Part shown: piece by piece, positions 5,842 through 60,306 of the stretch
Position numbering within the stretch: position 1 is the stretch's first letter
Layout: each line of letters begins with the position of its first letter
Virus record (IMG/VR): IMGVR_UViG_3300025098_005131
Strand: one strand, 5' to 3'
Length of the DNA stretch: 64,000 bases
From: a virus
Taxonomy: Duplodnaviria > Caudoviricetes
The notes under the pieces: generated by a model
Databases searched by the model: none
Told to the model about the DNA's origin: nothing
The model's input: the letters and a program-made list of their open reading frames with translations, nothing else
Made by a program: the position numbers and the translations under genes

Positions 5842-5871
5842 ATTATAACACAAAGATAATCTTGAATACAC
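5842..5871 (-). promoter_or_regulatory. phage promoter GTGTAT-N18-TATAAT
   Basis: copy of the recurring motif, upstream of the vWA gene. Confidence 0.65.
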
Positions 5872-5891
5872 TTAAGTGATGACTAGGTGTT

Positions 5892-6974
5892 TTACTTACC
5901 TAATATGTCTCTATTGTTGTTTACAATCTCAACTACATATTGGCCAACTTCTTTATGGAAGTTCTGAATTGTTTTTATGTTTTTCCCTTTAGTAATACAA
6001 GACCAGAAGTGAATCATCATTTCTTCGGAAATAGACTTACCTAACTTAGCTGCGTTCTTAGCTTGTGAAACTGTCCAGTCATTTGTAGCACCATGTTCAC
6101 CTAATCTTTCAATTAAAGAATTGATTCTATCGTTAGACATTGCTTCAATCTTTTCTTTACATTTTGCAAATGATCTAAGAAGCTCTTCAGGTGTTACTAC
6201 AACTTCGTATTTTTTAACAAAATCAGTAAATTCAATTGCTGCCTCATTACCAATGAAACCAATTGCTGTGTTATAGATGTCAAACGTATCTCTATCTTCC
6301 ATGAGTATAGTATTAGTATGTTTTAAAACCTCGTCAAATCTTGCCCAAGAAGCAGGAGTTGGAAATACCTGTCCTGGTTTGACCTTGTTGAGGTTAACAA
6401 AAAGATGTGATTTTCTTGTCTTAAGAAATTCTAAAATCATTGGGTCAACATTTTTAGATTTAGCCCATGTCATCCAGTCATTTTTTGAAGGTTCAATATC
6501 AATAGTCCAAAATCGTCTTAAAAGAGCTGGGTCCATTTCATTAACATCATATTCATTACCATGATTAACTGCTGCAATAATTCTGGTTTCTGGATGAATG
6601 TTATAAGCATTTCCTTCTTCATCATTACCAAGACAGCGATCCAATACAATTTGGAAAAATGATTGTTGTACAGCAGGTAAACCTCGATTTAATTCATCTA
6701 AAAACAAAACAACTGGTTCTTTGCAGGCTCTAACAAACCATGAAGGCATACAAAACGTCATTACACCTTTTGATTTCATGCCTTCGATATCAGGATAGCC
6801 TTGAACATCACCTTCAGACATAATAGATGCTCGAACATCAATAAGAGGTAGTGAAACGTCTCCAGCAATTTGATTTGCTAGTGCAGACTTTCCAATACCA
6901 GTTCCACCTCGCATAAGAATTGAAATGTGTGGAGGGAGATTAGGAGCTACTTTAAGAAAATTATTAATATTCAA
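5892..6974 (-). CDS. MoxR-like AAA+ ATPase
   Basis: Walker A GGTGIGKS, Walker B LFLDELNR, AAVN, MDPALLRRF, PTPASW. Confidence 0.9.
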   Translation of the reverse strand: MNINNFLKVAPNLPPHISILMRGGTGIGKSALANQIAGDVSLPLIDVRASIMSEGDVQGYPDIEGMKSKGVMTFCMPSWFVRACKEPVVLFLDELNRGLPAVQQSFFQIVLDRCLGNDEEGNAYNIHPETRIIAAVNHGNEYDVNEMDPALLRRFWTIDIEPSKNDWMTWAKSKNVDPMILEFLKTRKSHLFVNLNKVKPGQVFPTPASWARFDEVLKHTNTILMEDRDTFDIYNTAIGFIGNEAAIEFTDFVKKYEVVVTPEELLRSFAKCKEKIEAMSNDRINSLIERLGEHGATNDWTVSQAKNAAKLGKSISEEMMIHFWSCITKGKNIKTIQNFHKEVGQYVVEIVNNNRDILGK

Positions 6975-7020
6975 TTTAAATTCCTTTTAAAATGAAGTTG
7001 TTTGTTATTGATTATACTTT

Positions 7021-7050
7021 ATTATAATTTATTATTAATCTTAATTACAC
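7021..7050 (-). promoter_or_regulatory. phage promoter GTGTAA-N18-TATAAT
   Basis: part of a 53-bp block (7008-7060) 48/53 identical to 8180-8232. Confidence 0.75.
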
Positions 7051-7058
7051 TTTAGAGT

Positions 7059-7394
7059 TTATAATTTGTATTGAATAACTAAAATCAAAACGCTGAGAGC
7101 AGTACAAAGTGCTGTTTTAAACGTAAAAGGTGTTTCACCTAAACACATGTAAGTTAAAATTGGATAGACAAGGTAAGATAGACCAAAAAACATAAATCTT
7201 GCAGACCAAACTGAACCATTAAAGTTGTTAACAAAATAAGTCCAAGCATAAAGATACCCGTATGCAATAGGAAGACTAAATAGGATAATGATCCAGTCTT
7301 GTTTATCTTTATAAACATCATCGATAAACTGCAAGTTCTGTTGCAAAAATGTTAATGTTGCAGCAAAAATATAAGCTGCTAAAGCATATGCCAT
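7059..7394 (-). CDS. small four-TM membrane protein (DMT/SMR-like size and topology)
   Basis: four hydrophobic helices in 111 aa. Confidence 0.6.
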   Translation of the reverse strand: MAYALAAYIFAATLTFLQQNLQFIDDVYKDKQDWIIILFSLPIAYGYLYAWTYFVNNFNGSVWSARFMFFGLSYLVYPILTYMCLGETPFTFKTALCTALSVLILVIQYKL

Positions 7395-7397
7395 ATA

Positions 7398-8147
7398 TTA
7401 TTTAGACCCCACTCGAGCTACTTCGTTAAAACCTTCTTTCTTAAGATCTAAGAAGAAAGTCCAACCAGCTCCGCCAAAACGATTCTTAATCGTTTCTAGA
7501 ACACGTAAACCTTTAAAGTCTTCATCTTTCTTTTCAATAGAAAGGTGTAACATTGCGTCAACCATATGCTTTAACTTTTGCGAGCCAGCCATATTACCAC
7601 TTTTATTAACCTGTCCGATACAGATAACATTAATATAATGCTCTTTAGCATAGTCAGTAAGCATTTGAAGAGACCTTACAGCAGACTGACTGTTTGTATT
7701 TTCTTCTCCATACTTACCATCATTAAGTGTTTGTAAAGAGTCAACAATGAGAAAAAACGGTTTGTTTCCTGACTTCTTTCGAAGCATATCACATTGTTTA
7801 AGAAGCCTTGGAACATATGATTCTTGCCCGGCAATAAATCCGCTTGATAGTTCTAGTCTTTCACACGTAAGCTTTACTTGATACAAGCTTTCTTCAGCAG
7901 TATTAAATAAACATGTATATCCTTGAGATGTTAAAGCGTTAGCAAGTGTAAGCATGAGTGTAGTTTTACCAGCGCCTGGTTCTCCGGTAAACAACGAAAT
8001 CGTAGAAGGAGTAAAGCCTTCACCCCCAAAAGCTGCGTCAATGTAGTCAACGCCACACGGATTTCTCTCTCTTAGTTTCCTAGGAACGCTAATGTCGAGA
8101 ATGTTTGTGCCAAAAACAATACCGTCGTTTTTTACTTTAAGTTTCAT
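7398..8147 (-). CDS. radA: RadA/Sms-like recombination ATPase, core domain only
   Basis: GEPGAGKTTL, AEESLYQV, VDSLQTL, QVNKSGNMAGSQKLKHMVDA, KNRFG; no Zn finger or Lon-like domain. Confidence 0.85.
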   Translation of the reverse strand: MKLKVKNDGIVFGTNILDISVPRKLRERNPCGVDYIDAAFGGEGFTPSTISLFTGEPGAGKTTLMLTLANALTSQGYTCLFNTAEESLYQVKLTCERLELSSGFIAGQESYVPRLLKQCDMLRKKSGNKPFFLIVDSLQTLNDGKYGEENTNSQSAVRSLQMLTDYAKEHYINVICIGQVNKSGNMAGSQKLKHMVDAMLHLSIEKKDEDFKGLRVLETIKNRFGGAGWTFFLDLKKEGFNEVARVGSK

Positions 8148-8192
8148 TATTTAATAATCCTTTAAAAAGTGATTGTTGATTGATTATACTTA

Positions 8193-8222
8193 ATTATATT
8201 TTATTGTTGATCTTAATTACAC
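8193..8222 (-). promoter_or_regulatory. phage promoter GTGTAA-N18-TATAAT
   Basis: upstream of radA-like gene; near-identical to 7008-7060. Confidence 0.75.
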
Positions 8223-8230
8223 TTAAGAGT

Positions 8231-8569
8231 TTAAATCTGGCGTATATATCTACCATCAAACTGCTTAACTGCACCTTTAACTAGCACAAAGAAGCAGTTT
8301 TTCTCAACTCTTCTTGAAAAATATTCAAAATCAGAAACAATTAAACCTATGGACTTTTCAGTGCTGAAGTCTACTTCAACTAACTGATTAGGCTTAAACG
8401 AATATCTGATTATTTTTTTTACTTTTGCAAAATTTTCATCCTTAACAACTCTTTGCGTAGATACTTGCCTTGTTTGCTTCGACGCTTGCCTAGCAGCTTT
8501 TAAACTGTTCGGGTTAGTGTTTTGCATCTTTGATTTAAGCTCTTTAAGCTGTTTTCTAGATAATGACAT
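8231..8569 (-). CDS. hypothetical protein, basic N-terminus plus SH3/KOW-like C-terminus
   Basis: FKPNQLVEV...IGLIV...FFVLVKGAVKQFDGRYIRQI. Confidence 0.6.
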   Translation of the reverse strand: MSLSRKQLKELKSKMQNTNPNSLKAARQASKQTRQVSTQRVVKDENFAKVKKIIRYSFKPNQLVEVDFSTEKSIGLIVSDFEYFSRRVEKNCFFVLVKGAVKQFDGRYIRQI

Positions 8570-8590
8570 AACAGTCTCCTTTATATAATT

Positions 8591-8619
8591 ATTATATAAA
8601 CTTTTTAAAACAATTACAC
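8591..8619 (-). promoter_or_regulatory. phage promoter GTGTAA-N17-TATAAT
   Basis: upstream of 8569. Confidence 0.7.
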
Positions 8620-9084
8620 ACGCTTAGTATATATTATTCCTGCATTAATTTCAGAACCGTACACACTATTTAAACCGTTTCTTACATGAGACATAATACA
8701 ATCAGACATATAATCGTCAAGATCTTCTTTACCGTAAGTAAAGTTTAAGTTCTCAACAAGCTCTTTACCGTAATTCCATGCCAAAATTTCTTCATTCATT
8801 AAGTGAACAAATCCTTTTTTAGATCTAACTGTCCAAGGCATGTTCTTGTTAAAACATATTACACCTTTACGTTTAATTTGATTATCAATAATCATGTGAC
8901 CTGCTTCATGCAAAAGAGTAAAAAATCTTTCTCGATATTTTAGGTTTTGATTAATTCTAATCATGTTAAGTTGAGGATACCAGGCATCTTCTTCGTAAGG
9001 CTTTTGGATCACATTAACAAAGTAATTGTCCTTAATGTATTTAGTTAAAATATAAAATTGATTTTTGTATGTTTGAGGGTTCAT
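8614..9084 (-). CDS. zincin-like metallopeptidase (ImmA/IrrE-like HExxH)
   Basis: FTLLHEAGH followed by EEILAW. Confidence 0.65.
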   Translation of the reverse strand: MNPQTYKNQFYILTKYIKDNYFVNVIQKPYEEDAWYPQLNMIRINQNLKYRERFFTLLHEAGHMIIDNQIKRKGVICFNKNMPWTVRSKKGFVHLMNEEILAWNYGKELVENLNFTYGKEDLDDYMSDCIMSHVRNGLNSVYGSEINAGIIYTKRV

Positions 9085-9103
9085 GTTGTTGTCCTTTTAT
9101 ATT

Positions 9104-9133
9104 ATTATAAATTATATTTAAACAATTTTGCAC
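9104..9133 (-). promoter_or_regulatory. phage promoter GTGCAA-N18-TATAAT
   Basis: upstream of 9084. Confidence 0.65.
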
Positions 9134-9144
9134 TTATGAGTCAT

Positions 9145-9651
9145 CTAAATGTTTTTATATTTCTGGAATATTCTTCTAATCTTTTTGGTATGACTATTGA
9201 CTCCTTTAACATATCTTGAAGTATATTTGTTCTTCTTAGAACATTTGTTTGAATTATTGTAATAACAAAGTGCTTTGTTAAGTGGCTTAAACTTTTTTTT
9301 ATAATACTTTAAAGCTTTGACGCCGTGATGAAATAAATCACATTTTCGTAGTAAGCCATCTCGTTTAACAGCATTTATATTTCCTTTATTGTTGGGACAC
9401 CAAAACTCATATTTAATTTGTAGTGGTCCTACACATTTAAATTTATTAGGTTTTGATTGCTCAGTCATTCTAGACTCTTCCCAAGCAACGCCAAGTGTTA
9501 AAGGTATATCTAAATTATTATTTTTTGCTTCTTCAATTAGAATAGAACATACTGCAAGGTTTTCTTCTCGCGGTTTGTTGTCAGATAATTTATGATAAAC
9601 CTCTTCGCAAAAACTATATTGAACAGATAAAGCAATTAAAAGTTTAATCAA
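9145..9651 (-). CDS. lytic transglycosylase (SLT/lysozyme-like)
   Basis: LGVAWEESR (catalytic Glu), VGPLQI, ALCYYN, YVKGV; N-terminal signal-like segment. Confidence 0.75.
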   Translation of the reverse strand: MIKLLIALSVQYSFCEEVYHKLSDNKPREENLAVCSILIEEAKNNNLDIPLTLGVAWEESRMTEQSKPNKFKCVGPLQIKYEFWCPNNKGNINAVKRDGLLRKCDLFHHGVKALKYYKKKFKPLNKALCYYNNSNKCSKKNKYTSRYVKGVNSHTKKIRRIFQKYKNI

Positions 9652-9841
9652 AATGTTTTTGTACGTCTCCTGATCTATGTGTTTCTATTGTATCATCTTG
9701 AAATCTAATTCTATAAAAAACTTTAGCCTCAGTTGTTCCCCCAACGGTTAGTTGGTTATTTCCTTCAGTAAGGATTTCTTCTACTACTCCGATTTTGTTT
9801 ATTCTTTGCCAGTGATAAACTTTGTCGCCTCTTTTTATCAT
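9644..9841 (-). CDS. small SH3/KOW-like protein
   Basis: IKRGDKVYH...IGVVEEI...YRIRFQDDTIETH. Confidence 0.6.
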   Translation of the reverse strand: MIKRGDKVYHWQRINKIGVVEEILTEGNNQLTVGGTTEAKVFYRIRFQDDTIETHRSGDVQKHFD

Positions 9842-9866
9842 TTTAATAACCTTTCGAATATGGTTT

Positions 9867-9895
9867 ATTGTAATAAAAAAAATAAAAAATTACAC
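9867..9895 (-). promoter_or_regulatory. phage promoter GTGTAA-N17-TACAAT
   Basis: upstream of 9841. Confidence 0.7.
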
Positions 9896-9900
9896 TTTTA

Positions 9901-10449: not shown

Positions 10450-11613
10450 TTATAATTTTTCTATGAAATTTATTTGTTGTTTATCGTGAGAATCTTTTCT
10501 GCTTTTGCCTAGTTTTATTAGTTCATTCATTTTTTCTTGTGAAGAAACTTTTTCGGAAAAATTATTGCAATTTTCTTCAGCTTTGTCTGTTAAAATGTTA
10601 ATTGACTGAAAAATGGTTTTTAATCTTTTGAGAACAAAACAAGCAATATGCGCGCTATCTTTAAATATGATTCTTTCAGGCGCTGAATGGGAGATGTCTC
10701 TTTCTAAGAGTGTAGTACAATTTTCAATTGCTGTATGCATGTAAGACTTATAAAGTCTTGTAAGGCCGCATATGTTTTCTGAAAGTATTGGGTTCTTTTT
10801 GTGAGGCATTGCACTTGATCCTTTTTGTCCTTTCGAAAAAGGTTCAGACATTTCATTTACGCCATCAATACTGTATATTCTTATGTCATAAGCAATTTTT
10901 TCTGCTGCTAAAACTACTTTAAGTATTGCATAGAAGTAATCTAAAAAAACATCTCGAGGAATAATCTGTGAACTTCTTATTGGATACAAGCCTAAAGATC
11001 GAAGAGCGTTGTTTTCGTTTCGATATGAGTTGAAAGTATTATTGCCTATTACTCCTGATAATTTTCCCCATTTCAAGCCTTTTTCTACACGAGATATTTC
11101 GTCATAACCTCTTCTTAAATAGTCTATCCATCTTAAAAAGATTTCTCTATAAGTTTGTATTTCAGCAGACTTTCCATGAGTTCGACCTAATATTCTTTTT
11201 TTAGAAAAATCTGATTTTAAAACTTTGTTTAAATGATATAAAGTATCAGCGCAGTAATTGTTAACTTGCTTTAACGATTCTTTACTCATAAGAACAAGTG
11301 AAGTATCTAATATGTCTGATGATGTTAGGCCATAATGTATCCATCTTCCAGCATTACCAGGAATAGATTCTTCTAGCATTTGCACGAAAGCTTGAACGTC
11401 GTGTCTAGTTTCTGATTCTATTTCTTTCCATCTGTCGATATTAATTGATACGTTTTCCTGAATAGTTTTTAACTCTTTTTCAGTAATTGTTTTTTCAATT
11501 ATATTACCAGAAATTGACTCTAAGTGTGCCATTTCAACTTTAAGCCATGTTTTTAATTTATTTTCTGTTTTCCATATATCATGAATTTCTTGTACTTTAT
11601 AACGTGGTATCAT
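10450..11613 (-). CDS. purB: adenylosuccinate lyase
   Basis: HDVQAF, HYGLTSSDILDT, GRTHG, GSSAMPHKKNP, ERDISHS. Confidence 0.95.
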   Translation of the reverse strand: MIPRYKVQEIHDIWKTENKLKTWLKVEMAHLESISGNIIEKTITEKELKTIQENVSINIDRWKEIESETRHDVQAFVQMLEESIPGNAGRWIHYGLTSSDILDTSLVLMSKESLKQVNNYCADTLYHLNKVLKSDFSKKRILGRTHGKSAEIQTYREIFLRWIDYLRRGYDEISRVEKGLKWGKLSGVIGNNTFNSYRNENNALRSLGLYPIRSSQIIPRDVFLDYFYAILKVVLAAEKIAYDIRIYSIDGVNEMSEPFSKGQKGSSAMPHKKNPILSENICGLTRLYKSYMHTAIENCTTLLERDISHSAPERIIFKDSAHIACFVLKRLKTIFQSINILTDKAEENCNNFSEKVSSQEKMNELIKLGKSRKDSHDKQQINFIEKL

Positions 11614-11792
11614 TTTTTCTCTTTATATTTTTCTATAGTTTCTGTTGGCAATTCAACTATTTGTTTACCTAATAATATTTCTGACAGGCTTTTAGTTTTT
11701 CTGTAAACTTCATTTATACCATACTTGATAGTTACAGGTGAATCATAGTCAAATTTATTAATAACAAGATCACCATGTTTTAACTTGCCCAA
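11610..11792 (-). CDS. small SH3/KOW-like hypothetical protein
   Basis: KHGDLVINK...YGI...EILLGKQIVEL; translationally coupled between purA and purB. Confidence 0.55.
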   Translation of the reverse strand: MGKLKHGDLVINKFDYDSPVTIKYGINEVYRKTKSLSEILLGKQIVELPTETIEKYKEKK

Positions 11793-12976
11793 ACTATTTC
11801 GCCTCTTTTAGGGCCAGTTGTATATGATATCTTATTGACTCCAGTATGTATCTCTATCTGATTTAATAATTCTGTAAAACCTGGATCAAAAGCACTTACT
11901 GTATTGATTTTAGATAACAAATAGCTTCTGCCATGAACAAACAAACTAGGTCTTTCGATATGCGTCATAACATCAGTTTTGACTACACATAAATGATCAA
12001 CACCATTTTGTTGAACAGCTCGTTTAACTTCGTCTAAATCAAGCCAGCCACATTGTCTTGGGCGACCTGTAGTTGCTCCGAACTCTTGACCAACTTCAGA
12101 AAGAACTTTTTCTTGGCCGTCTGATATTATACTTGGGAAATCGCCAGATCCAACTTTAGTTTTATAAGATTTTATAACACCAATTACCTCATCTATCTGC
12201 TTATGACTTAAACCTGTAGAATTTAAGGCACCACCTACAGAAGGTGCTGATGATGTAACATCTGGATAGTTATTTGAAAATATGTTGAGACCACTGCCTT
12301 GCGCGCCTTCTAGTAAGATATTATAGTCTTTTTTATAATAATCTTGTAGCACATTTTCATTGTTGAGACGATATAGACCAAGTATTTCAGACATTTCTTT
12401 ATATTTTAAAACCCAATTATTAAACAAGTCAAAATCTGGTTTGAGTTCTTTTAAACTTTCTCCATCTTGTGCTCTCTTTTCTTGTAAGTCAAAAAACTTT
12501 GATTGAATCTTTATAAGAGATTCTTCTGGAGAATCTACGATGTCTTTTACAAGAATAGAATCTCTAGCGTAAAAATCAGAGTAAGCAGGGCCAATTCCTT
12601 TAGCAGTTGTGCCTAGTTTCTTTTGATATTTAAGTCTGTCAATAATTTTATGTGTTGGCTCTATTATTGGGCAGTAACCAGAAACTGAAAGGTTTATGCC
12701 GGGTTTTACATTAAGGCCAGCAACTTCTTGACAAAATTCTTCTATGTCTACAACACAACCTCTTGCAATTATATTAATTACTTCTTTTGAAAGAACGCCG
12801 ACAGGCAAGATGTGTGTAACAAATTTATTTCCTCTTCTATCATAGACAGTATGTCCTGCATTTCCTCCTCCTTGAAATCTTACGACAACGTCAGCCCAAG
12901 TTTGAACTAAATCATCAACTACTCTACCTTTACCTTCGTCTCCGTGCTGGAGACCTAATACTAATTTTGTTGGCAT
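11780..12976 (-). CDS. purA: adenylosuccinate synthetase (canonical PurA, not PurZ)
   Basis: GLQHGDEGKG, QGGGNAGHT, GTTAKGIGPAYSD, EGAQG, EFGATTGRPRQCGWLD. Confidence 0.95.
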   Translation of the reverse strand: MPTKLVLGLQHGDEGKGRVVDDLVQTWADVVVRFQGGGNAGHTVYDRRGNKFVTHILPVGVLSKEVINIIARGCVVDIEEFCQEVAGLNVKPGINLSVSGYCPIIEPTHKIIDRLKYQKKLGTTAKGIGPAYSDFYARDSILVKDIVDSPEESLIKIQSKFFDLQEKRAQDGESLKELKPDFDLFNNWVLKYKEMSEILGLYRLNNENVLQDYYKKDYNILLEGAQGSGLNIFSNNYPDVTSSAPSVGGALNSTGLSHKQIDEVIGVIKSYKTKVGSGDFPSIISDGQEKVLSEVGQEFGATTGRPRQCGWLDLDEVKRAVQQNGVDHLCVVKTDVMTHIERPSLFVHGRSYLLSKINTVSAFDPGFTELLNQIEIHTGVNKISYTTGPKRGEIVWAS

Positions 12977-13632
12977 TAATTTTCTTTCTCTTCAGAATAA
13001 TCAAAGTTATTTGTTTCACCTAACAATTCGTAAGTCTCATGTGAAAATTCTCTTGGTTTGTCAAAAACTTTAAAGTCAGGTTTTTTAGGATTTTCATAGC
13101 CAAGAGAGCTATGATTCCATAAAATCTTATTATTCGGGCCACAACACAAAACGCCTAATTCGTCTTCAAAGAAAAAGTTTTTTTGCTTATGCTCTGTCCA
13201 AAATTTTGATTCTGTATAGTCAACTGAATTATTTATCTCAGGCGGTTTAAAATCAACTGTAAAGGTGTATCTTCCTCTTAGCAAAGCTTTGTTTCTATTT
13301 TTCATTGTAACATCAACGTTTTTTAAAAATGCTTTTTGATAAATTTCAGCGCTGTCTGTTATACAATCCCACCAAGCAACATCTGTTAAATCGATTTTTA
13401 CATTTGGACTTTCTTCTTTGTTGAATATTGCGCATTGTAATATTTTATCATAACAAGCATTATATTCAGGCATATAAGCTTCAAACAAAGGAGGTTCGTA
13501 CCTTGTGAATCTAACACCTACAAGGTAAGCCTCAATCATATTATGATCTTTTGCCCAAATAAAATTGCTTGAGCCTTTTAAAAAAGATTCTTTAATCCAC
13601 ACTTTTTCGTATGGTAAATTTAAATACATCAT
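12976..13632 (-). CDS. hypothetical protein within the purine operon
   Basis: 218 aa, tightly coupled to neighbours; motifs PPLFEAY, WWDC, HKQ. Confidence 0.65.
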   Translation of the reverse strand: MMYLNLPYEKVWIKESFLKGSSNFIWAKDHNMIEAYLVGVRFTRYEPPLFEAYMPEYNACYDKILQCAIFNKEESPNVKIDLTDVAWWDCITDSAEIYQKAFLKNVDVTMKNRNKALLRGRYTFTVDFKPPEINNSVDYTESKFWTEHKQKNFFFEDELGVLCCGPNNKILWNHSSLGYENPKKPDFKVFDKPREFSHETYELLGETNNFDYSEEKEN

Positions 13633-13633
13633 G

Positions 13634-14695
13634 TTATTTTTTCCTGTTAAAAATATGAGGATTACCTTCTACATGTGAAGAAGATGTTTGCTTTCGAAAT
13701 ACTGCATTGTCTATAAGCTCTTGTAAAGTATTTGCACCGCTATAAGACATTCCACTTCTTACATTTGACATTATCTCATTAATCACCTTTGAAGTAGTAC
13801 CTTTGTAAGGGACAAATGAAGCGACGCCTTCGATTGAGTTGTATGTGCCTTTCCAGTTTTTCTGTGCTGCTTTTGAAGCCATTCCGTTATAACGCTTTAA
13901 CTTTTTACCGTCTTGAGTTATTGTTTTTCCTGGCGTTTCTCTTGTTCCACTTAACATAGAACCAAGCATAACAAAATCTGCGCCTGCTGCTAATGACTTA
14001 ACAATATCACCACTATTTTTAATACCACCATCAGCAACAATATAAGGCACTAAACAATCTTTACTGTTATTTAATAGATCTTGTTTTGCCTCATAACAAT
14101 CAAGTATTGCCTGAAATGTTGGTATTCCGTGTCCTGTCTGGATTCTTGTTGTACAAATACTTCCACTCCCTACAGATGTTCGAACAGCATGCGCGCCTGC
14201 CAATGCTAAACGTTTATACGCATGACCTGTAGCAACGTTTCCTGCCATGACAAATAGATGTGGATATTCACTCCTGATAAATTCTATTGCTTTTTCCATA
14301 AGAATATGATCACCGTGAGCAATGTCAATACAGACAATACTTAAATCATTTCTAGAAAGCTCTGATAATCTTTCTTTGTAATCTCCAGTTGCACCAATCG
14401 CTGCAGCTCTATAATCTCTATGATTAACATATCCTAAGAGTTTTGCTTGAAACTCAATTGTATTATACCTGTGAATAATACCTAGTCCACCTTGACTGAT
14501 CATCGCATTAGACATATGCGCTTCAGTTACTGTTGACATAGGAGAGCTGATAATTGGTATTTTAAATTTTAAATTCTTGCCAGAATATTTTACATTAACA
14601 CAAGTATCAATATTCTTTCTAGTTATTAACTCTGAGTATTGAGGTTCTAAAATTACATCATCAAAACTTAATACTTCTTTTTTATTAATTCTCAT
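13634..14695 (-). CDS. IMPDH/GMP reductase family enzyme without CBS domains (GMP reductase favoured)
   Basis: PIISSPMSTV, DIAHG, GSGSICTTR (catalytic Cys), ADGGIK, YNGMAS, EG..PYKG; flap lacks the IMPDH Arg-Tyr dyad. Confidence 0.9.
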   Translation of the reverse strand: MRINKKEVLSFDDVILEPQYSELITRKNIDTCVNVKYSGKNLKFKIPIISSPMSTVTEAHMSNAMISQGGLGIIHRYNTIEFQAKLLGYVNHRDYRAAAIGATGDYKERLSELSRNDLSIVCIDIAHGDHILMEKAIEFIRSEYPHLFVMAGNVATGHAYKRLALAGAHAVRTSVGSGSICTTRIQTGHGIPTFQAILDCYEAKQDLLNNSKDCLVPYIVADGGIKNSGDIVKSLAAGADFVMLGSMLSGTRETPGKTITQDGKKLKRYNGMASKAAQKNWKGTYNSIEGVASFVPYKGTTSKVINEIMSNVRSGMSYSGANTLQELIDNAVFRKQTSSSHVEGNPHIFNRKK

Positions 14696-14716: not shown

Positions 14717-14745
14717 AGTGTATATAAATAATTTTTTATTTACAC
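14717..14745 (-). promoter_or_regulatory. phage promoter GTGTAA-N17-TACACT heading the purine operon
   Basis: upstream of 14695, GAGGA RBS. Confidence 0.65.
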
Positions 14746-15696: not shown

Positions 15697-15726
15697 TTTA
15701 TATAATAATAATCATATTTATTACAC
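15697..15726 (-). promoter_or_regulatory. phage promoter GTGTAA-N18-TATAAA
   Basis: upstream of uvsE. Confidence 0.55.
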
Positions 15727-54944: not shown

Positions 54945-54987
54945 CATATTTAAAAATATATTTAAAAACATATTTAAAAACATATTT
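54945..54987. repeat. 12-bp tandem repeat (3.5 copies) upstream of 55003
   Basis: catatttaaaaa tatatttaaaaa catatttaaaaa catattt, then AGGAG RBS. Confidence 0.75.
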
Positions 54988-55002: not shown

Positions 55003-55419
55003 ATGAAAATTACAGAAAGACGTTTACGTTCAATTATTAGAAGTGTTATTAGAGAGTCACGTGCTGACAAGATGTTAGATTATCACGTAGGTCATGGTGA
55101 TCATCCAGACTATGATCCTGCAGTAGGTCAAGATCGTTCTGAGACGTTGTTTGATATAAGCGGCGATCGCCCTACTGAGCCTTATTCTCCTCCTATGAAA
55201 GTATCAAAACAACTTATGGATTCTGCAAGAGCAAACTCATATCTTCAAAAGTATAGTCCATTAAAATCAAGAATACAAGGAAGTGTAAGTTGTAAACGTT
55301 CTAGCGAGCGTTTTCCTGATGGCTGGAGCTGTAGTGTTAAACTGTCTGAAGACGGGCGCATTGTGCCTGTAATTATTCACATGAGCTACGACGGTGACAT
55401 AGAAGTACAATACATGTAA
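55003..55419 (+). CDS. hypothetical protein with MKITERRLRSIIRSVIRE leader
   Basis: leader shared with 2005..2361; AGGAG RBS. Confidence 0.7.
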   Translation: MKITERRLRSIIRSVIRESRADKMLDYHVGHGDHPDYDPAVGQDRSETLFDISGDRPTEPYSPPMKVSKQLMDSARANSYLQKYSPLKSRIQGSVSCKRSSERFPDGWSCSVKLSEDGRIVPVIIHMSYDGDIEVQYM

Positions 55420-58400
55420 TTAATCAAAAGCATTAATCTTTTTAAGTTTAGCAAGTGTAGATGACATACCCCAACCTGCATCGTTCTTTACATCAGCAAG
55501 CCATGTACTAAACTCAACACCATCTTCAACACTACCCCAAACCCTTAACCAGCCACTACGATTGTCTGAGTCAACGCATTTCCAACGCATAAACGCTTTA
55601 CCGTTTTTTGTTGTTTTATGAATAACTTCTGTAACAGTAAACCAGCCAATTCCTCTTTCACCTTGAGGTATATCAAATACACTCTTGATTTGCTTGTCGT
55701 TTAACTTTTTAATTAGACTAGGTGGAAACAGGAGGTCGTCACTTGCATCGTTGCTGAGATCAAAATAATTCCTAATTTTTTCTGATCTATTCCAGTCAGA
55801 CACAACACGATACTTTGTCAATAAATCTTCAACAATTGGAACAATTTCTTCTTCGTTCTTTTTTGCTCTTTTTACTGCAGTTTTTGTCATTCCCCAATAA
55901 CCTTTCTTGAGTGTAGTATAGTTATCAAGTATTAAATCATGGAGTTGCTTGTGATTATCCAGTTCATCGTTTTTAAACTCGTCAAGAGACTTAAATGCTT
56001 CCATCTTCGCTAGCGATGAAAAAGCTGTTTTGTTTAACTTGGAATGTTTCCATACTCCTTCTGCATCGTAAAATAGAGTATTTAAATTTTTGTATGGTCT
56101 ATTCGCAAATACTTCTTCAACAGCTTTATCTCCTACTCCTTTAAGCGATGTTAGCGGAGGAACAAAAGCTTTTAATACGTCTGAATATTCCCATTCTGCT
56201 TCAGAGTGGTTTATATCTATTGCTGCAATTTCGTATCCAAATGATTTAATCTCTGATATGGCTTTTGACATGCCTTTGGGGTTACCATTTTCAGACTGTA
56301 ATATTGCAGCCAACCACTCAGTCTCGTGATGTGTATGCAGCCAAGCCGCGTAATATGAACCAATAGCATAAGCAACTGCGTGAGACTTGTTAAAGCCATA
56401 AACAGCAAAATTTTCTATATCTGCCCATAACTTAGAAGATACCGACTCCGGGACATCGTTTAATTCTTTAGCACCTTTAATAAACTTTTCTCTAGCAATT
56501 GCTTTTTCTGAGCCTTTAGAATGCAGTGTATCTAGTGACTTCTTAACCAGCGTCTTTCTAAGCTTATCAGCCTCACCTGGATCAAATCCACTTAACTCTT
56601 GTGCAAGTAACATAAACTGCTCTTGAAAAACTACGTAGTTAAACGTAGGCCCTAATATCTTTTCAATAATAGGGTGATCATACTTAATGTCAGATGCATT
56701 TCTTTTTGCTTTAACATACTTCTTATGAACATTTGCTTTAAGCGGACCAGGTCTGTATATAGCTGTTAAGGCTGCAAGTTCTTCAATAGAATCAGGTTCT
56801 GCCTCTTTGGCAAAGTTTCTAGCACCAGGAGCTGTAAATTGGAATATGCCACAAAACTTTCCGTCTTTATATACATGTTCCCAAACTTTAGGGTCATCTT
56901 GTTTGACAAACCTACAGTTTAAATGTTTATCAAAGAATGCTCTTGCATCTGTAAATGTAGGATTATTATTTCCTTGCTTCTTGAGAATTCTATAAATGCA
57001 GTTTTCTACGTCTTTAAGCAATGTCAATCCTAAGAAGTCAAACTTAAGAAAGCCGTTATCTTCAAGATTTCTAAAGTTCATACCTTCTGTCCAAGGAGTT
57101 TGTAGTTCGCCGCGAACACCAACAATCGGCATTGACTCAGCAAGAGAATCAGCATCAGCTATTATTACACCACCTGCGTGTCTACCAATAGCTCTATTTT
57201 GCATAAACAACGTTTCAACATGCTCGGCAACTTCCGGATAGGTTGTCATAAATTCATTATACTCAGGAGAGTATTTCATACAGTCTTCATGCTTAAGGAC
57301 GAATACAGATTTTTCTTGATTTTTATCCATCGCTTTTTGCATAACTTGATCTTGAAGAGGACCAGTTACTTTGTTTACTTCATCAAAAGGAATATCATAA
57401 AACTTTGCAATATCTTTAATAAGCGATTTAAGCTTAAGTGTATTAAAGTTTGATACTGGAATAACTGCATCGTCGCCGTATAATTCTTTTGCTGCATTAA
57501 TAAGTTCATCTCTGTCGCCAGCGTCTGTATCAATGTCAGGCCACGAAACTCTGTGTCTTCCTAAAAATCTACTCCAAAGTAAGTTATAAGGAATAGGATC
57601 AAGTTGAGTAATACCTAGCAAGTAATTAACTAAAGAACCTCCGCCTGAGCCACGGGCCGGTCCAAATAGAGTCTTTGTTTCAGCTTTTTTAAAGATCTCA
57701 TACATTGTAATGAAGTAAGCTTCGTGCCCAAGATACTTAATGTCAGACAGCTCATATTTAGCTCTATCTACATATTCTTTGTTTGTATGCAAACCTTCAC
57801 TAATCAAAGCATTCTTGACTAAGTCTGATAGATGTTTAAACGGCGTCTTATCAGGTACTGATATTGTTGGAAGCTTTGCGCTTACATCTATCCATGTATC
57901 TTCGAAATCATTCCAAACAATGTCATGTGTTCTTTCTATCGACTCTTTAACTAGCTGCTCGTTTCCTTTATAGAAATCGTGTTCTTTATATCCTTCTAAG
58001 AATTCATCCCACATTTGTTGCGCATTCTTAGGATATAGCTCACATTTAAGATCTTCAAAAGCAGGCAGTGTCATGCCATCCTTCTTACCTAACCATCCAA
58101 GCTTCTTATATAATTCTCTCGCTTGCCACTTATCATTACTTGGGTAGTGAGAATCTGCTGTTGAGATAAGAGGAATACCCGTCAACTTATGATGTTCTAT
58201 GAGGTAATCATTAACAACATGTTGTTTATTAAGCTTGTTGAATTGTAGTTCTAATTTAAAGTTTTCAATACCAACAGCATCTGTAAACCTGTCTGATAGA
58301 CTTAAAAGATCTTTTTGGATTTCGTCGCGTGACTTATCATGAGCTACGCCTCGAAGTATTCTATTGCTAAAAATGCCGCCTAAACATGCAGTATTAACAT

Positions 58401-58995
58401 GCAAACCTTCACCGTGTTCTTTAAGCATTTTAAAGTCAATACGTGGGTATCGATAGAAACCATCCTTATACGACTTCTTTACAAGGGTAAACAGATTATT
58501 AAGACCTTTTCTATTTCTTGCTGTAACAACTAAGTGATATCGACGTTTCCATTCATCCTTAAGAATATCAATCTTCTTGGACTCATCTTCATCCTCGATT
58601 ACAAGACCACCACTTTCATCATCAGCGTCAATAACAATTTTTTCTTTGCTTTTTCTTTCAGCAGCAGCAGCAGTTTTTGCATCTTTAATTGCTTGCCTGT
58701 GTGATGCATAGTCATCTGTCCATTGATCTAACGAAGGAACAAAATAAAATTCTACACCATAAATCTGTCTAAACTTTCGACCTGCTTTTTGCATTTTAAC
58801 TGCATATGAATGTGCATGTGCAAGACCGTTACCGTTACCGTGGTCTGTTAGCGCCCAAGCATCCATGCCTTGTGATTCAGAAAGAACAAAGTCTATATGA
58901 TCTGATGGGTATCCTAGTCCATCGAAAGTGCTGAACGTTGAGTGTGAATGAAGAGAAACAAATCTGTCTGGTGGTGTTATTAAATCAATAGACAA
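55420..58995 (-). CDS. dnaE: DNA polymerase III alpha subunit (family C)
   Basis: PHP HSHSTFS.FDG, TDHGN, DSHY; RGSGGGS, PDIDTD, KFDFLGL, FQEQ, GFNKSHA. Confidence 0.95.
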   Translation of the reverse strand: MSIDLITPPDRFVSLHSHSTFSTFDGLGYPSDHIDFVLSESQGMDAWALTDHGNGNGLAHAHSYAVKMQKAGRKFRQIYGVEFYFVPSLDQWTDDYASHRQAIKDAKTAAAAERKSKEKIVIDADDESGGLVIEDEDESKKIDILKDEWKRRYHLVVTARNRKGLNNLFTLVKKSYKDGFYRYPRIDFKMLKEHGEGLHVNTACLGGIFSNRILRGVAHDKSRDEIQKDLLSLSDRFTDAVGIENFKLELQFNKLNKQHVVNDYLIEHHKLTGIPLISTADSHYPSNDKWQARELYKKLGWLGKKDGMTLPAFEDLKCELYPKNAQQMWDEFLEGYKEHDFYKGNEQLVKESIERTHDIVWNDFEDTWIDVSAKLPTISVPDKTPFKHLSDLVKNALISEGLHTNKEYVDRAKYELSDIKYLGHEAYFITMYEIFKKAETKTLFGPARGSGGGSLVNYLLGITQLDPIPYNLLWSRFLGRHRVSWPDIDTDAGDRDELINAAKELYGDDAVIPVSNFNTLKLKSLIKDIAKFYDIPFDEVNKVTGPLQDQVMQKAMDKNQEKSVFVLKHEDCMKYSPEYNEFMTTYPEVAEHVETLFMQNRAIGRHAGGVIIADADSLAESMPIVGVRGELQTPWTEGMNFRNLEDNGFLKFDFLGLTLLKDVENCIYRILKKQGNNNPTFTDARAFFDKHLNCRFVKQDDPKVWEHVYKDGKFCGIFQFTAPGARNFAKEAEPDSIEELAALTAIYRPGPLKANVHKKYVKAKRNASDIKYDHPIIEKILGPTFNYVVFQEQFMLLAQELSGFDPGEADKLRKTLVKKSLDTLHSKGSEKAIAREKFIKGAKELNDVPESVSSKLWADIENFAVYGFNKSHAVAYAIGSYYAAWLHTHHETEWLAAILQSENGNPKGMSKAISEIKSFGYEIAAIDINHSEAEWEYSDVLKAFVPPLTSLKGVGDKAVEEVFANRPYKNLNTLFYDAEGVWKHSKLNKTAFSSLAKMEAFKSLDEFKNDELDNHKQLHDLILDNYTTLKKGYWGMTKTAVKRAKKNEEEIVPIVEDLLTKYRVVSDWNRSEKIRNYFDLSNDASDDLLFPPSLIKKLNDKQIKSVFDIPQGERGIGWFTVTEVIHKTTKNGKAFMRWKCVDSDNRSGWLRVWGSVEDGVEFSTWLADVKNDAGWGMSSTLAKLKKINAFD

Positions 58996-59021
58996 ATCAT
59001 ATACCTTTCTTGTTTTTATTT

Positions 59022-59050
59022 ATTATATTTAATTAATAATTAATTTACAC
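59022..59050 (-). promoter_or_regulatory. phage promoter GTGTAA-N17-TATAAT upstream of dnaE
   Basis: exact motif. Confidence 0.75.
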
Positions 59051-59059
59051 GAATTTAAA

Positions 59060-60253
59060 TTACTTGATTACTTCTTTACCATCGATTAGCCTAAAAGTTC
59101 TTTCTTTGTTATACTTCATGACTTTACCGTAAGACATGCGCATGCACCCAATACAACTCACTATATTATTTGGGCTTTGTCCATCTTCACTGTAACGATT
59201 AAAAAACTCAATTAGAGCTTCTAAAGATTTAAATCCTCCGCCGAGACCCCAGTAACACTCACCAGAAAGCCACATTCGAAGTCGATTAGGCATCCATCTA
59301 TTTTGAATACACAGTTTTATTTCTTTGTCAAGTAAATTAATTCCTGTGTTTCCATTCATAAACTGGTCTTTTGTAAAAACTGCGTCAAACTCGTTATCGC
59401 GGAGGTTATTGAAAGACTTTTCATCAAGTAGCTTTTTAGCTGTCACTTTTATGTCGTCAAAAAGACCAATGCTTTTTTCTCGACACTTTCTTATGCTAAT
59501 CTCTCTAAATGCTAACTGTCTAAGCAAAGGAACAGTTGGAAAGTCTTTTTCAATGTAATGAGGAGATACTGCAAGTGTAAGATACGTTATAACTCTTGCA
59601 TCTATTAATCCATGATGAAAAAACTTTGAAAGCTTAGTGCTACCTTCGCGCTCATTTCTTGTTATATGATACGTTATTAGCTTTTCTTTAAATCGTCTAT
59701 AGACGTTGACGACTTCTTGTCTTATTTCTTCAGCATTCGCTTTATTAACAATATGCACGCTGCCTATGTTTCCAAAGTCATTAACTTTTCTATAGGCACA
59801 GTAAATATCGTTATTTGAAAGTTTGTTTTTTGCCCAATAAATCCATCTGCTCTTTGCTGTCATTTTTGTGCATGAGTCTATAAAAGAGTCAGAGTCAACT
59901 TCTTCGACGTTTAAATTATTAAATACAAGTTGATTAGAAAACAAAGGTTTGTCGTAAAAGACTTTTTCAACATTTTCTTTTTTACAGAATTCTTCGATAA
60001 CACTTACAGCTGAAGGTGTCTTTATTATTTTAAGACTTAAGTCATACTTCTTTTTTATTTGGCATGCAAAGTCATCTAAGACTTTGTAGTAGTATTCATT
60101 GTTGCTCATTTCATAAAAACTTTTAAACTTTTCGCTTAAGTAATAATTTGAAACATGAACAACACACACATTACTATATGAATTTAGCGCCTTATAAAAT
60201 AAAAGGCTGTTTGTTCTAAAGCTATGATCTATAATAATTAGACACTTCGACAT
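59060..60253 (-). CDS. divergent DNA photolyase/cryptochrome family protein
   Basis: GSTKLSKFFHHG, RQLAFRE, GNTG..LLD, MPNRLRM, SEDGQSPNN. Confidence 0.75.
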   Translation of the reverse strand: MSKCLIIIDHSFRTNSLLFYKALNSYSNVCVVHVSNYYLSEKFKSFYEMSNNEYYYKVLDDFACQIKKKYDLSLKIIKTPSAVSVIEEFCKKENVEKVFYDKPLFSNQLVFNNLNVEEVDSDSFIDSCTKMTAKSRWIYWAKNKLSNNDIYCAYRKVNDFGNIGSVHIVNKANAEEIRQEVVNVYRRFKEKLITYHITRNEREGSTKLSKFFHHGLIDARVITYLTLAVSPHYIEKDFPTVPLLRQLAFREISIRKCREKSIGLFDDIKVTAKKLLDEKSFNNLRDNEFDAVFTKDQFMNGNTGINLLDKEIKLCIQNRWMPNRLRMWLSGECYWGLGGGFKSLEALIEFFNRYSEDGQSPNNIVSCIGCMRMSYGKVMKYNKERTFRLIDGKEVIK

Positions 60254-60276
60254 TTATAACCTTTCTATTTTTATTT

Positions 60277-60306
60277 ATTATATTAACATTATATTTATAT
60301 TTACAC
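60277..60306 (-). promoter_or_regulatory. phage promoter GTGTAA-N18-TATAAT upstream of the photolyase-like gene
   Basis: exact motif. Confidence 0.7.

What the first reader, a model, noticed from the sequence alone, without database searches (positions are those of the whole stretch)
5842..60306. Twelve copies of a phage-specific promoter with a GTGTAA -35 box
Seen (minus strand): GTGTAA (variants GTGTAT, GTGCAA, ATGTAA) + 17-18 nt + TAtAAT at 5842-5871, 7021-7050, 8193-8222, 8591-8619, 9104-9133, 9867-9895, 14717-14745, 15697-15726, 32644-32673, 35991-36019, 59022-59050 and 60277-60306. Four copies also carry an ACTC box 5 nt upstream of the -35. They precede replication, repair and metabolism genes (AAA, vWA, radA, purine operon, uvsE, sigma, dnaE, photolyase). 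I did not see them before genes with the LLxE leader. Inference: this defines an early/middle regulon distinct from TTGACA promoters.
Basis: partly seen in the sequence, partly recalled or inferred. Interest (0 to 1): 0.7.

Follow-up and report, generated by a model that had tools for sequence, protein, structure and literature searches.

The report
Clade-wide phage promoter with GTGTAA box
An uncultured marine giant phage and its many relatives head their replication, repair, metabolism and sigma-factor genes with one promoter type (GTGYAW, 17-18 bases, TATAAT) in place of the usual bacterial TTGACA box. The promoters are real and conserved, but which protein reads the odd box is still open.

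Summary
All twelve sites are where stated, on the minus strand, intergenic, 18-46 nt upstream of a start codon. Six match GTGTAA-N17/18-TATAAT exactly (0.04 expected), five have one mismatch and one has two.

The motif is a lineage-wide promoter class:
- Related IMG/VR contigs (26-58% GC) carry it at orthologous positions, with diverged spacers.
- It lies almost only on the gene strand (76:0 and 139:3).
- GTGTAT and GTGCAA are natural variants, so the consensus is GTGYAW.

In a complete relative all 41 copies lie outside the 80-200 kb block that holds capsid and portal genes. Canonical TTGACA promoters are at chance level. An early/middle regulon is therefore well supported by inference, but no transcript starts could be checked.

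Caveats:
- Site 35991 (ATGTAA) is not conserved.
- Site 15697 is probably mis-registered by 8 nt.
- The ACTC box is local to this region.
- The "photolyase" label has no support.

Most likely the host holoenzyme reads these promoters first, as it reads T4 early promoters (GTTTAC). The lineage's own sigma lacks region 4.2 and is always followed by a small conserved partner. That pair is the main rival reader.

The scan had already reported this promoter on adjacent DNA of this genome, and GTGCAA boxes with split sigmas in other genomes.

The parts
5842..5871 (-). Promoter: GTGTAT-N18-TATAAT, 39 nt before the ATG of the DUF2201 metallopeptidase/vWA gene (4516-5802)
   Evidence: Recurs at the orthologous position (+1103 from the AAA gene start) in relatives. 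GTGTAT is a natural variant.
7021..7050 (-). Promoter: GTGTAA-N18-TATAAT, 46 nt before the TTG start of the AAA_5 (MoxR-like) ATPase gene (5892-6974); ACTC lies 4 nt upstream
   Evidence: GTG[TC]A[AT] with TATAAT is kept at this position in 43 of 47 relatives of 26-58% GC.
8193..8222 (-). Promoter: GTGTAA-N18-TATAAT, 45 nt before the KaiC/RadA-like ATPase gene (7398-8147; the 111-aa ORF 7059-7394 follows). About 60 nt are a near-duplicate of the 7021 cassette.
   Evidence: Recurs at -1248 from the AAA gene start in relatives.
8591..8619 (-). Promoter: GTGTAA-N17-TATAAT, 21 nt before a 112-aa ORF (8231-8569)
   Evidence: Recurs at -1645 in relatives.
9104..9133 (-). Promoter: GTGCAA-N18-TATAAT, 19 nt before a 156-aa M78/IrrE-like metalloprotease ORF (8614-9084)
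   Evidence: Recurs at -2159 in relatives. GTGCAA is the common variant in GC-richer relatives.
9867..9895 (-). Promoter: GTGTAA-N17-TACAAT, 25 nt before a 65-aa ORF (9644-9841) and a 168-aa ORF (9145-9651)
   Evidence: A hit near -2900 recurs in several relatives.
14717..14745 (-). Weaker promoter: GTGTAA-N17-TACACT, 21 nt before the IMPDH/GMP-reductase-like gene, heading the ferredoxin-like/purA/purB run (10450-14695). The -35 and -10 hexamers form a palindrome.
   Evidence: Kept in close relatives with TACACT, TATACT or TATAGT. The hairpin has z = -2.9.
   Evidence: Relatives show a clean GTGTAT-N17-TATAAT here.
32644..32673 (-). Promoter: GTGTAA-N18-TATAAT, 18 nt before the phage sigma gene
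   Evidence: A GTGTAA-type promoter lies upstream of sigma in at least 25 of 40 relatives. Close relatives share the spacer TAATTATTGA.
35991..36019 (-). Doubtful member: ATGTAA-N17-TATAAT, 21 nt before a 153-aa ORF that heads the 5'-3' exonuclease and GroEL run
   Evidence: Not conserved as GTGYAW in relatives; only a TATAAT-like -10 recurs.
59022..59050 (-). Promoter: GTGTAA-N17-TATAAT, 26 nt before the TTG start of dnaE (55420-58995)
   Evidence: Present directly upstream of dnaE in most of 80 related loci (27-53% GC), with unrelated spacers.
60277..60306 (-). Promoter: GTGTAA-N18-TATAAT, 23 nt before a 397-aa ORF of unknown function (59060-60253). Its 5' UTR is nearly the same as that of dnaE.
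   Evidence: Conserved in close relatives.
31873..32625 (-). Product of the regulon and candidate reader: sigma-70-family factor with regions 1.2, 2, 3 and 4.1 that stops before the region 4.2 helix-turn-helix
   Evidence: The truncation is kept in about 40 related loci. None of the 120 best database homologues has a region 4 Pfam domain.
31617..31883 (-). Candidate partner: conserved 88-aa helical protein whose gene overlaps the sigma gene by 11 nt (motif KMNHSTVRN)
   Evidence: Found directly after sigma in at least 38 of 40 relatives. Its fold and family are unresolved.

Best explanation
These are working promoters of one lineage-specific class: GTGYAW, 17-18 bp, TATAAT, for bacterial RNA polymerase carrying a sigma-70-family factor. 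Sigma region 2 reads the TATAAT. Transcription should start 6-8 nt downstream and gives short leaders with a Shine-Dalgarno site.

The class drives the pre-replicative (early/middle) genes: replication, repair, nucleotide metabolism, chaperonin and the phage's own sigma. In neighbouring DNA and in relatives it also drives arrays of small cassettes.

I think it most likely that the unmodified host holoenzyme uses these promoters at the start of infection, as it uses T4 early promoters with their GTTTAC box. The perfect -10 and optimal spacing would do most of the work. GTGYAW keeps only the T and G of TTG.

The phage sigma, made from one of these promoters, would then serve a later, -35-less promoter class (candidate GAATATTTA).

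Shown: the motif, its statistics, its conservation, its strand and position rules, and its absence from the structural block.
For: 1. Statistics. Six exact copies against 0.04 expected. In intergenic-only shuffles 5 against 0.012. In an unbiased test of hexamers 17-18 nt upstream of every TATAAT, GTGTAA and GTGTAT come top.

2. Conservation.
- 76 exact copies lie on the gene strand and 0 on the other in 80 dnaE loci of 27-53% GC. Only the two hexamers and the spacing are kept.
- 43 of 47 relatives keep the promoter upstream of the AAA gene.
- The same relative positions recur; 139 hits are on the gene strand against 3 opposite.
- There are 15-33 exact copies per related genome, against 0-1 for the reversed-pattern control.

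3. Regulon.
- In complete genome G001 all 41 relaxed copies lie in 0-80 and 200-239 kb.
- The gp23-like capsid and the portal genes lie at 116-126 kb.
- A different single-block motif, ATATTTA, sits 20-45 nt upstream of genes in that block. This includes the portal gene of G003.

4. Host reader.
- This is the only class with sigma-70 architecture. Canonical TTGACA matches are at chance and number 0-1 per genome.
- No RNA polymerase beta-prime motif is encoded.
- No T4 gp55, gp33 or gp45 was found.
- The sigma gene itself sits behind this promoter in at least 25 of 40 relatives.
- A sigma without region 4.2 fits a promoter without a -35 element.
- No phage sigma has the E458 equivalent that reads TGn, yet the listed G003 promoters nearly all carry a TG two bases before TATAAT (mostly TGGTATAAT).
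- Sigma region 2.4 varies (ALQ, VRR, VTR) while TATAAT stays constant.

5. Precedent. T4 early promoters use GTTTAC at -36 to -31 and are read by host sigma-70 (PMC1524935; PMC2988021).
Against: - GTGYAW matches TTGACA at only 3 of 6 positions. Yet its non-consensus letters are conserved across genomes of 26-58% GC, which presumably have different hosts. Host sigma region 4.2 alone does not explain that.
- Other marine phages that carry uvdE but no such sigma use canonical TTGACW-TATAAT and no GTGYAW. The odd box therefore travels with the truncated sigma and its partner.
- In G003 the box (CTGTAA) sits 19 nt from the -10, an awkward distance for region 4.2.
- There are no transcript-start, timing or host data.
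Confidence: 0.5

Rival explanations
1. A two-piece phage sigma reads the promoters. The truncated sigma (regions 1.2 to 4.1) reads TATAAT. The 88-aa partner encoded by the next gene takes the place of region 4.2 and reads GTGYAW. Host holoenzyme would give only a weak first round. The phage pair would then amplify its own and all other GTGYAW promoters while ignoring host TTGACA promoters.
For: - The sigma stops about 20 residues after RLRFGI and so lacks the -35-reading helix-turn-helix. This holds in about 40 relatives. It also holds in the 120 best database homologues.
- The partner gene follows directly, overlapping or abutting, in at least 38 of 40 relatives. It has an invariant M-N-H...R core, laid out like a helix-turn-helix by my reading of the sequence.
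- Complex prediction of sigma 120-250 with the partner gave weak support. The score was 0.38 against a best control of 0.00. In calibration, 58 of 80 solved complexes and 2 of 110 mismatched pairs reached the mark. Only 7 of those 80 solved complexes did so at a score of 0.60 or under, as did both mismatched pairs. Runs agreed in at least 47% of contacts, and partner pLDDT was at least 61.
- The GTGYAW box and the sigma-partner pair co-occur. Outgroup phages with neither use TTGACW.
- Subclades with other boxes differ in the putative recognition helix. G003 has CTGTAA. G011 has GTGTAG-N17-TAAAT and the helix NHASARNYF.
Against: - The sigma gene depends on the same promoter class, so something else must read that class first.
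- The partner shows no significant likeness to sigma region 4, in sequence or in fold. Pfam Sigma70_r4_2 matched 3 of 32 members, best E 0.02. The PDB profile search found nothing relevant. Foldseek gave E > 0.7 and VIA Z at most 4.7.
- The same helix type (NHSTARNVF) occurs with both GTGTAA and CTGTAA.
- Region 2.4 varies while TATAAT does not, and the sigma lacks the TGn-reading glutamate.
- The co-occurrence rests on a single clade.
- A separate -35-less late motif would then need another reader, yet each genome has only one sigma.
Confidence: 0.3
2. GTGYAW is an operator for a separate DNA-binding regulator laid over a -10-driven promoter. The regulator could be phage-encoded, virion-delivered or a host protein. 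It would be either an activator, as MotA is in T4 middle promoters, or the repressor that shuts early transcription off.
For: - The box can shift by 1-2 bp relative to the -10 between subclades: 17-18 nt here, 19 nt in G003, where an extended -10 appears.
- A subset of sites has an inverted repeat around the box (TCTTAA-GTGTAA-TTAAGA at 8193) and an ACTC box.
- The spacer is conserved in the sigma promoter.
Against: - Within each lineage the spacing is as strict as for a -35 element.
- The box is asymmetric and single, with no general dyad.
- The MotA-box sequence and its 11-13 bp spacing are not met.
- No candidate regulator was identified.
Confidence: 0.12
3. The motif is not a promoter. It is a repeated recombination or cassette boundary, or a chance AT-rich pattern.
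For: - Promoter copies with their leaders are duplicated: 7021/8193 and 59022/60277.
- Relatives gain and lose copies.
- T4-type promoter/stem-loop cassettes do mediate recombination (PMC2839356).
Against: - Shuffles exclude chance.
- Only the hexamers and the spacing are kept, while spacers diverge completely, even at 48-58% GC.
- The motif is always co-directional with genes and 18-46 nt from a start codon.
- The second hexamer is a perfect -10.
Confidence: 0.03

Closest known systems
T4-type early promoters (T4 GTTTAC at -36 to -31; RB49, RB43 and Aeh1 GTTGAC), Nolan et al. 2006 PMC1524935; Hinton 2010 PMC2988021
   Same: - Many near-identical strong promoters with a perfect TATAAT.
- A lineage-specific -35 box that starts with a conserved G (GTGTAA shares 4 of 6 letters with GTTTAC).
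- They head early genes and arrays of novel small ORFs, co-directional with the genes.
- They are absent from virion genes, which use a short single-block late motif.
   Different: - The box is further from TTGACA (3 of 6, against 5 of 6 for TTTACA).
- It is conserved across phages of 26-58% GC.
- The lineage has no T4 replication or late-transcription genes: no gp43-type set, gp55, gp33 or gp45 was found. It uses DnaE.
- It encodes its own truncated sigma-70-type factor.
PeSL (promoter-early stem-loop) cassettes of RB49/phi1, Arbiol et al. 2010 PMC2839356
   Same: - Repeated early-promoter cassettes that are duplicated and reshuffled.
- In GC-richer relatives a G/C-tract stem-loop spans the -10 or the -35, for example CTCCCC...TATAAT...GGGGAG.
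   Different: - PeSL promoters match the E. coli sigma-70 consensus; these do not.
- In this AT-rich window 11 of 12 intergenic regions fold no better than shuffles.
T4 middle promoters and sigma appropriation (MotA box TGCTTtA at -30, with AsiA and MotA)
   Same: A host-type -10 combined with a phage-specific upstream box in front of replication and nucleotide-metabolism genes.
   Different: - The box sequence differs.
- It sits at the -35 position with 17-18 bp spacing, not 11-13 bp.
- It is the only sigma-70-like class in the genome and also drives the early-type cassettes.
- MotA and AsiA homologues were not looked for.
Two-subunit or minimal sigma factors: T4 gp55 with gp33, SPO1 gp34 with gp33, B. 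subtilis SigO-RsoA (named from my own knowledge and from earlier scan notes)
   Same: A sigma lacking its -35-reading module is paired with a small obligate partner gene.
   Different: - The split point here lies inside region 4, after 4.1.
- The sigma keeps regions 1.2 to 3 of the primary type.
- The partner matches no known family.
- Which promoter class the pair serves is not known.

Membership tests
Sigma-70-type two-block promoter | -10 hexamer TATAAT | tested here: met
   9 of 12 sites have exact TATAAT. The others have TACAAT, TACACT and TATAAA (or TATTAT in the alternative register).
Sigma-70-type two-block promoter | Spacer of 17 +/- 1 bp between the two hexamers | tested here: met
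   The spacer is 17 or 18 bp in all 12 sites. It is 17 or 18 bp in all exact copies in relatives, where the search pattern allowed only those spacers; most are 17.
Sigma-70-type two-block promoter | -35 hexamer close to TTGACA | tested here: not met
   GTGYAW shares 3 of 6 positions with TTGACA. Canonical-type matches are at chance: 60 found against 55.2 +/- 8.0 in shuffles.
Sigma-70-type two-block promoter | Transcript start 6-8 nt downstream of the -10 | not testable with these tools
No transcript data were available.
T4-type early promoter class | Lineage-specific -35 box beginning with a conserved G, plus a consensus -10, present in many copies | tested here: met
   G is the first letter in 11 of 12 sites and in all conserved copies. 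There are 15-33 exact copies per related genome (PMC1524935).
T4-type early promoter class | Heads early genes and novel small ORFs; absent from virion genes | tested here: met
   There are dense arrays in relatives, for example 18 copies in 17 kb of G004. None lies in the 80-200 kb capsid/portal block of G001. The timing itself was not measured.
T4-type early promoter class | Read by unmodified host sigma-70 holoenzyme immediately after infection | not testable with these tools
   This is inference only. The host is unknown.
PeSL cassette | Stable stem-loop (terminator) joined to the promoter | tested here: not met
   In the window only 14717 folds better than shuffles (z = -2.9); the other 11 have z > -1.7. 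GC-richer relatives do show such stems.
T4 middle (MotA-dependent) promoter | MotA box (a/t)(a/t)(a/t)TGCTTtA centred at -30, 11-13 bp from the -10 | tested here: not met
   The sequence and spacing differ: GTGYAW at 17-18 bp (consensus from PMC1524935).
Two-subunit (split) sigma factor as reader | Sigma lacks a DNA-reading module | tested here: met
   The alignment to RpoS/RpoD ends after region 4.1. There is no region 4 Pfam domain in this protein. None is present in the 120 best homologues either.
Two-subunit (split) sigma factor as reader | Conserved partner that supplies the missing module and binds the sigma | tested here: inconclusive
   The partner is conserved and adjacent. It has no significant region 4 likeness. 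Complex prediction gave weak support only: 0.38 against a best control of 0.00.
Two-subunit (split) sigma factor as reader | The pair recognises this promoter class | not testable with these tools
   There is only clade-level co-occurrence, and the sigma gene sits behind the same promoter.

The most novel reading that the evidence does not exclude
GTGYAW is the -35 element of a previously undescribed two-protein sigma factor. A primary-type sigma cut after region 4.1 reads TATAAT. An 84-108-aa partner of no known family, encoded by the next gene, reads GTGYAW. The pair is made from such a promoter, so it would amplify itself and move host core polymerase from TTGACA promoters to phage promoters in a large group of marine giant phages.
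Probability: 0.3. Interest if true: 0.8.

Novelty: new variant of a known kind. Interest (0 to 1): 0.55.

Why it matters
The motif gives a simple, testable map of the pre-replicative regulon for a large, abundant and wholly uncultured group of marine giant phages. These phages carry DnaE, T4-type capsids and own-sigma genes. In them most genes have no known function, so a promoter class sorts unknown genes into time classes.

A -35 box that departs from TTGACA, stays fixed across genomes of 26-58% GC and travels with a sigma lacking its -35 reader is a direct handle on how these phages redirect host RNA polymerase. The two main readings can be separated with a handful of in vitro transcription reactions. 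One reading is a T4-like use of the host sigma. The other is a new split sigma with its own -35 specificity.

Tried and rejected
- Whole genome of the window: none is held. I used complete relatives instead.
- blastn of dnaE against cultured phages gave no match. The best tblastn hit had 29% identity, so there is no cultured relative.
- Literature search for GTGTAA with phage and promoter found nothing relevant. A search on phage sigma, region 4 and marine jumbo phages found no description. The marine jumbo phage paper mentions only Pol III alpha for its group PGC_A.
- T4 gp55, gp33, gp45, gp44, gp32, gp46, gp47, gp59, RpbA and DsbA: phmmer found no homologues in G001, G003 or the window. Only RNase H-type exonucleases matched.
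- Phage multisubunit RNA polymerase: no DFDGD-type motif in the window, G001 or G003.
- Partner protein: no significant hit in Pfam, in the PDB profile search, in Foldseek or in VIA-align. There are only faint helix-turn-helix rows: LysR and LuxR types at Z 3.4-3.8, and Sigma70_r4_2 in 3 of 32 members.
- PHROG and Pfam scans of the large ORFs left them unnamed: 915, 921, 981, 1038 and 1537 aa and others. I could not label the promoter-free 36-55 kb stretch as structural.
- T4 late motif TATAAATA shows no consistent placement before genes.
- ACTC box as a class feature: rejected, 4 of 126 sites.
- Covariation of partner helix or sigma region 2.4 with box variants: too few independent lineages to decide.

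Full report
**What is in the window.** The 64-kb window has 31% GC and most of its genes are on the minus strand. Named genes:
- DUF2201 vWA/metallopeptidase, 4516-5802
- AAA_5 MoxR-like ATPase, 5892-6974
- KaiC/RadA-like ATPase, 7398-8147
- purB, 10450-11613
- purA, 11780-12976
- a ferredoxin-like PHROG, 12976-13632
- IMPDH/GMP-reductase-like, 13634-14695
- UvdE, 14753-15673
- a sigma-70-family factor, 31873-32625
- GroEL, 32837-34468
- 5'-3' exonuclease, 34661-35536
- DnaE, 55420-58995
- ATP-dependent ligase, 2600-3892

There is no cultured relative. Earlier notes of this scan call the genome an uncultured marine giant phage with T4-type virion genes.

**Checking the observation.** All twelve sites are at the stated coordinates on the minus strand.
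- Six match GTGTAA-N17/18-TATAAT exactly. Whole-window dinucleotide shuffles give 0.04. Shuffles confined to intergenic DNA give 0.012 against 5 observed.
- Five sites have one mismatch and one (14717) has two. One-mismatch hits are about five times enriched in non-coding DNA, whereas two-mismatch hits are mostly background.
- GTGTAA is the most enriched hexamer in non-coding DNA that is not purely A/T.
- In a scan that asks which hexamers sit 17-18 nt upstream of every TATAAT, GTGTAA is the only one that stands out in the window. GTGTAA and GTGTAT stand out in a related genome.
- Canonical TTGACA-type promoter matches are at chance level: 60 against 55 +/- 8.
- Every site lies 18-46 nt upstream of a start codon preceded by a Shine-Dalgarno sequence.

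**Conservation in relatives.** Four scans of IMG/VR gave about 260 related loci.
- In 80 dnaE loci of 27-53% GC, the exact motif occurs 76 times on the gene strand and never on the other. It mostly lies directly upstream of dnaE. The spacer and flanks are completely different, and only the two hexamers and the distance are kept.
- Upstream of the AAA gene, 43 of 47 relatives (26-58% GC) keep GTG[TC]A[AT]-N17/18-TATAAT.
- The positions of sites 5842, 7021, 8193, 8591, 9104 and 9867 recur at the same distances from the AAA gene. There are 139 hits on the gene strand against 3 opposite.
- GTGTAT and GTGCAA are therefore natural variants, and the consensus is GTGYAW.
- The promoter upstream of sigma is kept in at least 25 of 40 relatives.
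- Site 14717 is kept in close relatives with a weak -10 (TACACT, TATACT or TATAGT).
- Site 35991 (ATGTAA) is not kept as a GTGYAW promoter.
- The ACTC box occurs in only 4 of 126 unique sites, so it is local to this region.

**Genome-wide picture.**
- Four related large contigs hold 15-33 exact copies each, against 0-1 for the reversed-pattern control. All copies are co-directional with the genes.
- In the complete 239.5-kb genome G001, all 41 relaxed copies lie in 0-80 and 200-239 kb. The gp23-like capsid and the portal genes lie at 116-126 kb, in the copy-free block.
- In that block, and across the distant relative G003, a different single-block motif, (GA)ATATTTA, is enriched 20-45 nt upstream of start codons. 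This includes the G003 portal gene.
- In the window the same motif precedes the large unnamed ORFs that start at 23178, 43804, 51526, 55003 (three tandem copies) and 60331.
- The split into a pre-replicative class and a later class is therefore well supported by layout. No transcript data could be consulted.

**Variants in subclades.** G003 has no exact copy. It uses TTCTGTAAAAAA, then about 12 nt, then TGGTATAAT, followed by ACTATAAGG. G011 to G013 use GTGTAG-N17-TAAAT. The shared core is TGTA.

**Who reads the box.** The lineage encodes no beta-prime-type polymerase motif, no T4 gp55, gp33 or gp45, and exactly one sigma.
- That sigma aligns with RpoS/RpoD from region 1.2 to region 4.1 and stops about 20 residues after RLRFGI. 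It therefore lacks the helix-turn-helix that reads -35.
- The truncation is kept in about 40 related loci of 23-57% GC and in the 120 best database homologues.
- The next gene, overlapping or abutting, encodes a conserved 84-108-aa helical protein with the motif KMNHSTVRN.
- This partner has no significant likeness to any family or fold.
- Complex prediction with the sigma C-terminal part gave weak support only. The score was 0.38 against a best control of 0.00. A pass in this score range was reached by 7 of 80 solved complexes and by both mismatched pairs that passed. Runs agreed in at least 47% of contacts, and partner pLDDT was at least 61.

**Weighing the two main readings.**

For the host holoenzyme:
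- This is the only sigma-70-like promoter class, so something must fire it at time zero.
- The sigma gene is itself a product of the class.
- A sigma without region 4.2 fits the -35-less ATATTTA motif.
- No phage sigma has the glutamate that reads an extended -10, yet the listed G003 promoters nearly all carry a TG two bases before TATAAT, mostly TGGTATAAT.
- Sigma region 2.4 varies while TATAAT does not.
- T4 early promoters with GTTTAC are read by the host sigma (PMC1524935; PMC2988021).

For the phage pair:
- The non-consensus letters of GTGYAW are fixed across very different genomes.
- Other marine uvdE-carrying phages without this sigma use TTGACW-TATAAT and have no GTGYAW.

I put the host-first model at about 0.5 and the split-sigma reader at about 0.3. 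A separate regulator gets about 0.12 and a non-promoter reading about 0.03. A mixed course, host first and phage pair later on the same promoters, is possible.

**Comparison with known systems.**
- The closest known kind is the T4-type early promoter class. It also has many near-identical copies, a perfect -10 and a lineage-specific box that starts with G. It also serves early genes and novel ORFs, and virion genes have a separate short late motif.
- The PeSL cassettes of RB49/phi1 (PMC2839356) share the duplication and reshuffling. In GC-richer relatives they also share the G/C stem-loops across the -10 or -35. In this AT-rich window 11 of 12 regions fold no better than shuffles.
- The T4 MotA-box definition is not met.
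- I found no paper that describes a GTGTAA or GTGYAW box in phages, though the library is incomplete.

**Earlier findings of this scan.** The scan had already reported the same promoter on the DNA just before this window (e1-5363178). It had also reported GTGCAA boxes with split sigmas in other genomes (e1-4036062, e1-5376892, and others). Those are unchecked AI notes. I re-derived the points used here from the sequence.

**Verdict.** The early/middle regulon reading is largely right but inferred. This is a new variant of a known kind (phage early promoters). The open and more interesting question is whether the lineage's truncated sigma and its partner read the odd box.

Noticed in passing
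window 31617-32625 (-): The phage sigma factor stops after region 4.1. It is followed, with an 11-nt overlap, by a conserved 88-aa helical protein (KMNHSTVRN). The pair is kept in about 40 related loci, and none of the 120 best sigma homologues has region 4.
   Followed up: yes
window 54946-54976 (+); also 23138 (+), 60291/60297 (+), 51564 (-), 43847 (-): A second promoter-like motif, ATATTTA, lies 33-57 nt upstream of large unnamed ORFs. Three tandem ATATTTAAAAAC copies precede the gene at 55003. The same motif is enriched before genes of the capsid/portal block in G001 and G003, so it is a candidate -35-less late promoter.
   Followed up: partly
window 5832-5838, and downstream of the -10 at 8591, 9104, 14717, 32644; G001 and G003 genome-wide: A conserved (C/T)ATAAGG-like box starts 4-6 nt after the TATAAT, at the expected transcript start. 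It is nearly invariant (ACTATAAGG) in G003. Its function is unknown.
   Followed up: partly
window 6975-7058 vs 8148-8230; 58996-59059 vs 60254-60330: Promoter-plus-leader cassettes are near-duplicates. In relatives the dnaE cassette and the one upstream share even the TTG start and the first codon, which suggests copying or recombination of whole cassettes.
   Followed up: partly
window 14717-14745 (-): The -35 (GTGTA) and the deviant -10 (TACAC) are the two arms of a hairpin. Its fold z-score is -2.9, the only significant fold among the 12 regions.
   Followed up: partly
window 32650-32667 (-) and L084-L101: The spacer of the sigma-gene promoter (TAATTATTGA...) is conserved among close relatives, unlike other spacers. 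It may be an operator for control of the sigma gene.
   Followed up: no
G003 (L145-L159); G011-G013 (contigs of L123, L210, L211): Subclades use variant promoters. G003 has TTCTGTAAAAAA, then about 12 nt, then TGGTATAAT. G011 to G013 have GTGTAG-N17-TAAAT.
   Followed up: partly
L200, L201, L207, L223, L114, L115: In GC-rich relatives, C-tract/G-tract stems flank the -10, or a GC hairpin carries the -35 in its loop. A terminator and a promoter are fused, as in PeSL cassettes.
   Followed up: partly
L250, L251, L258-L260 (contigs G006, G007, G010): More distant marine phages carrying uvdE have canonical TTGACW-N17/18-TATAAT promoters upstream of it and no homologue of the truncated sigma.
   Followed up: yes
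Several very large ORFs (915-1537 aa) are also unnamed.
   Followed up: partly
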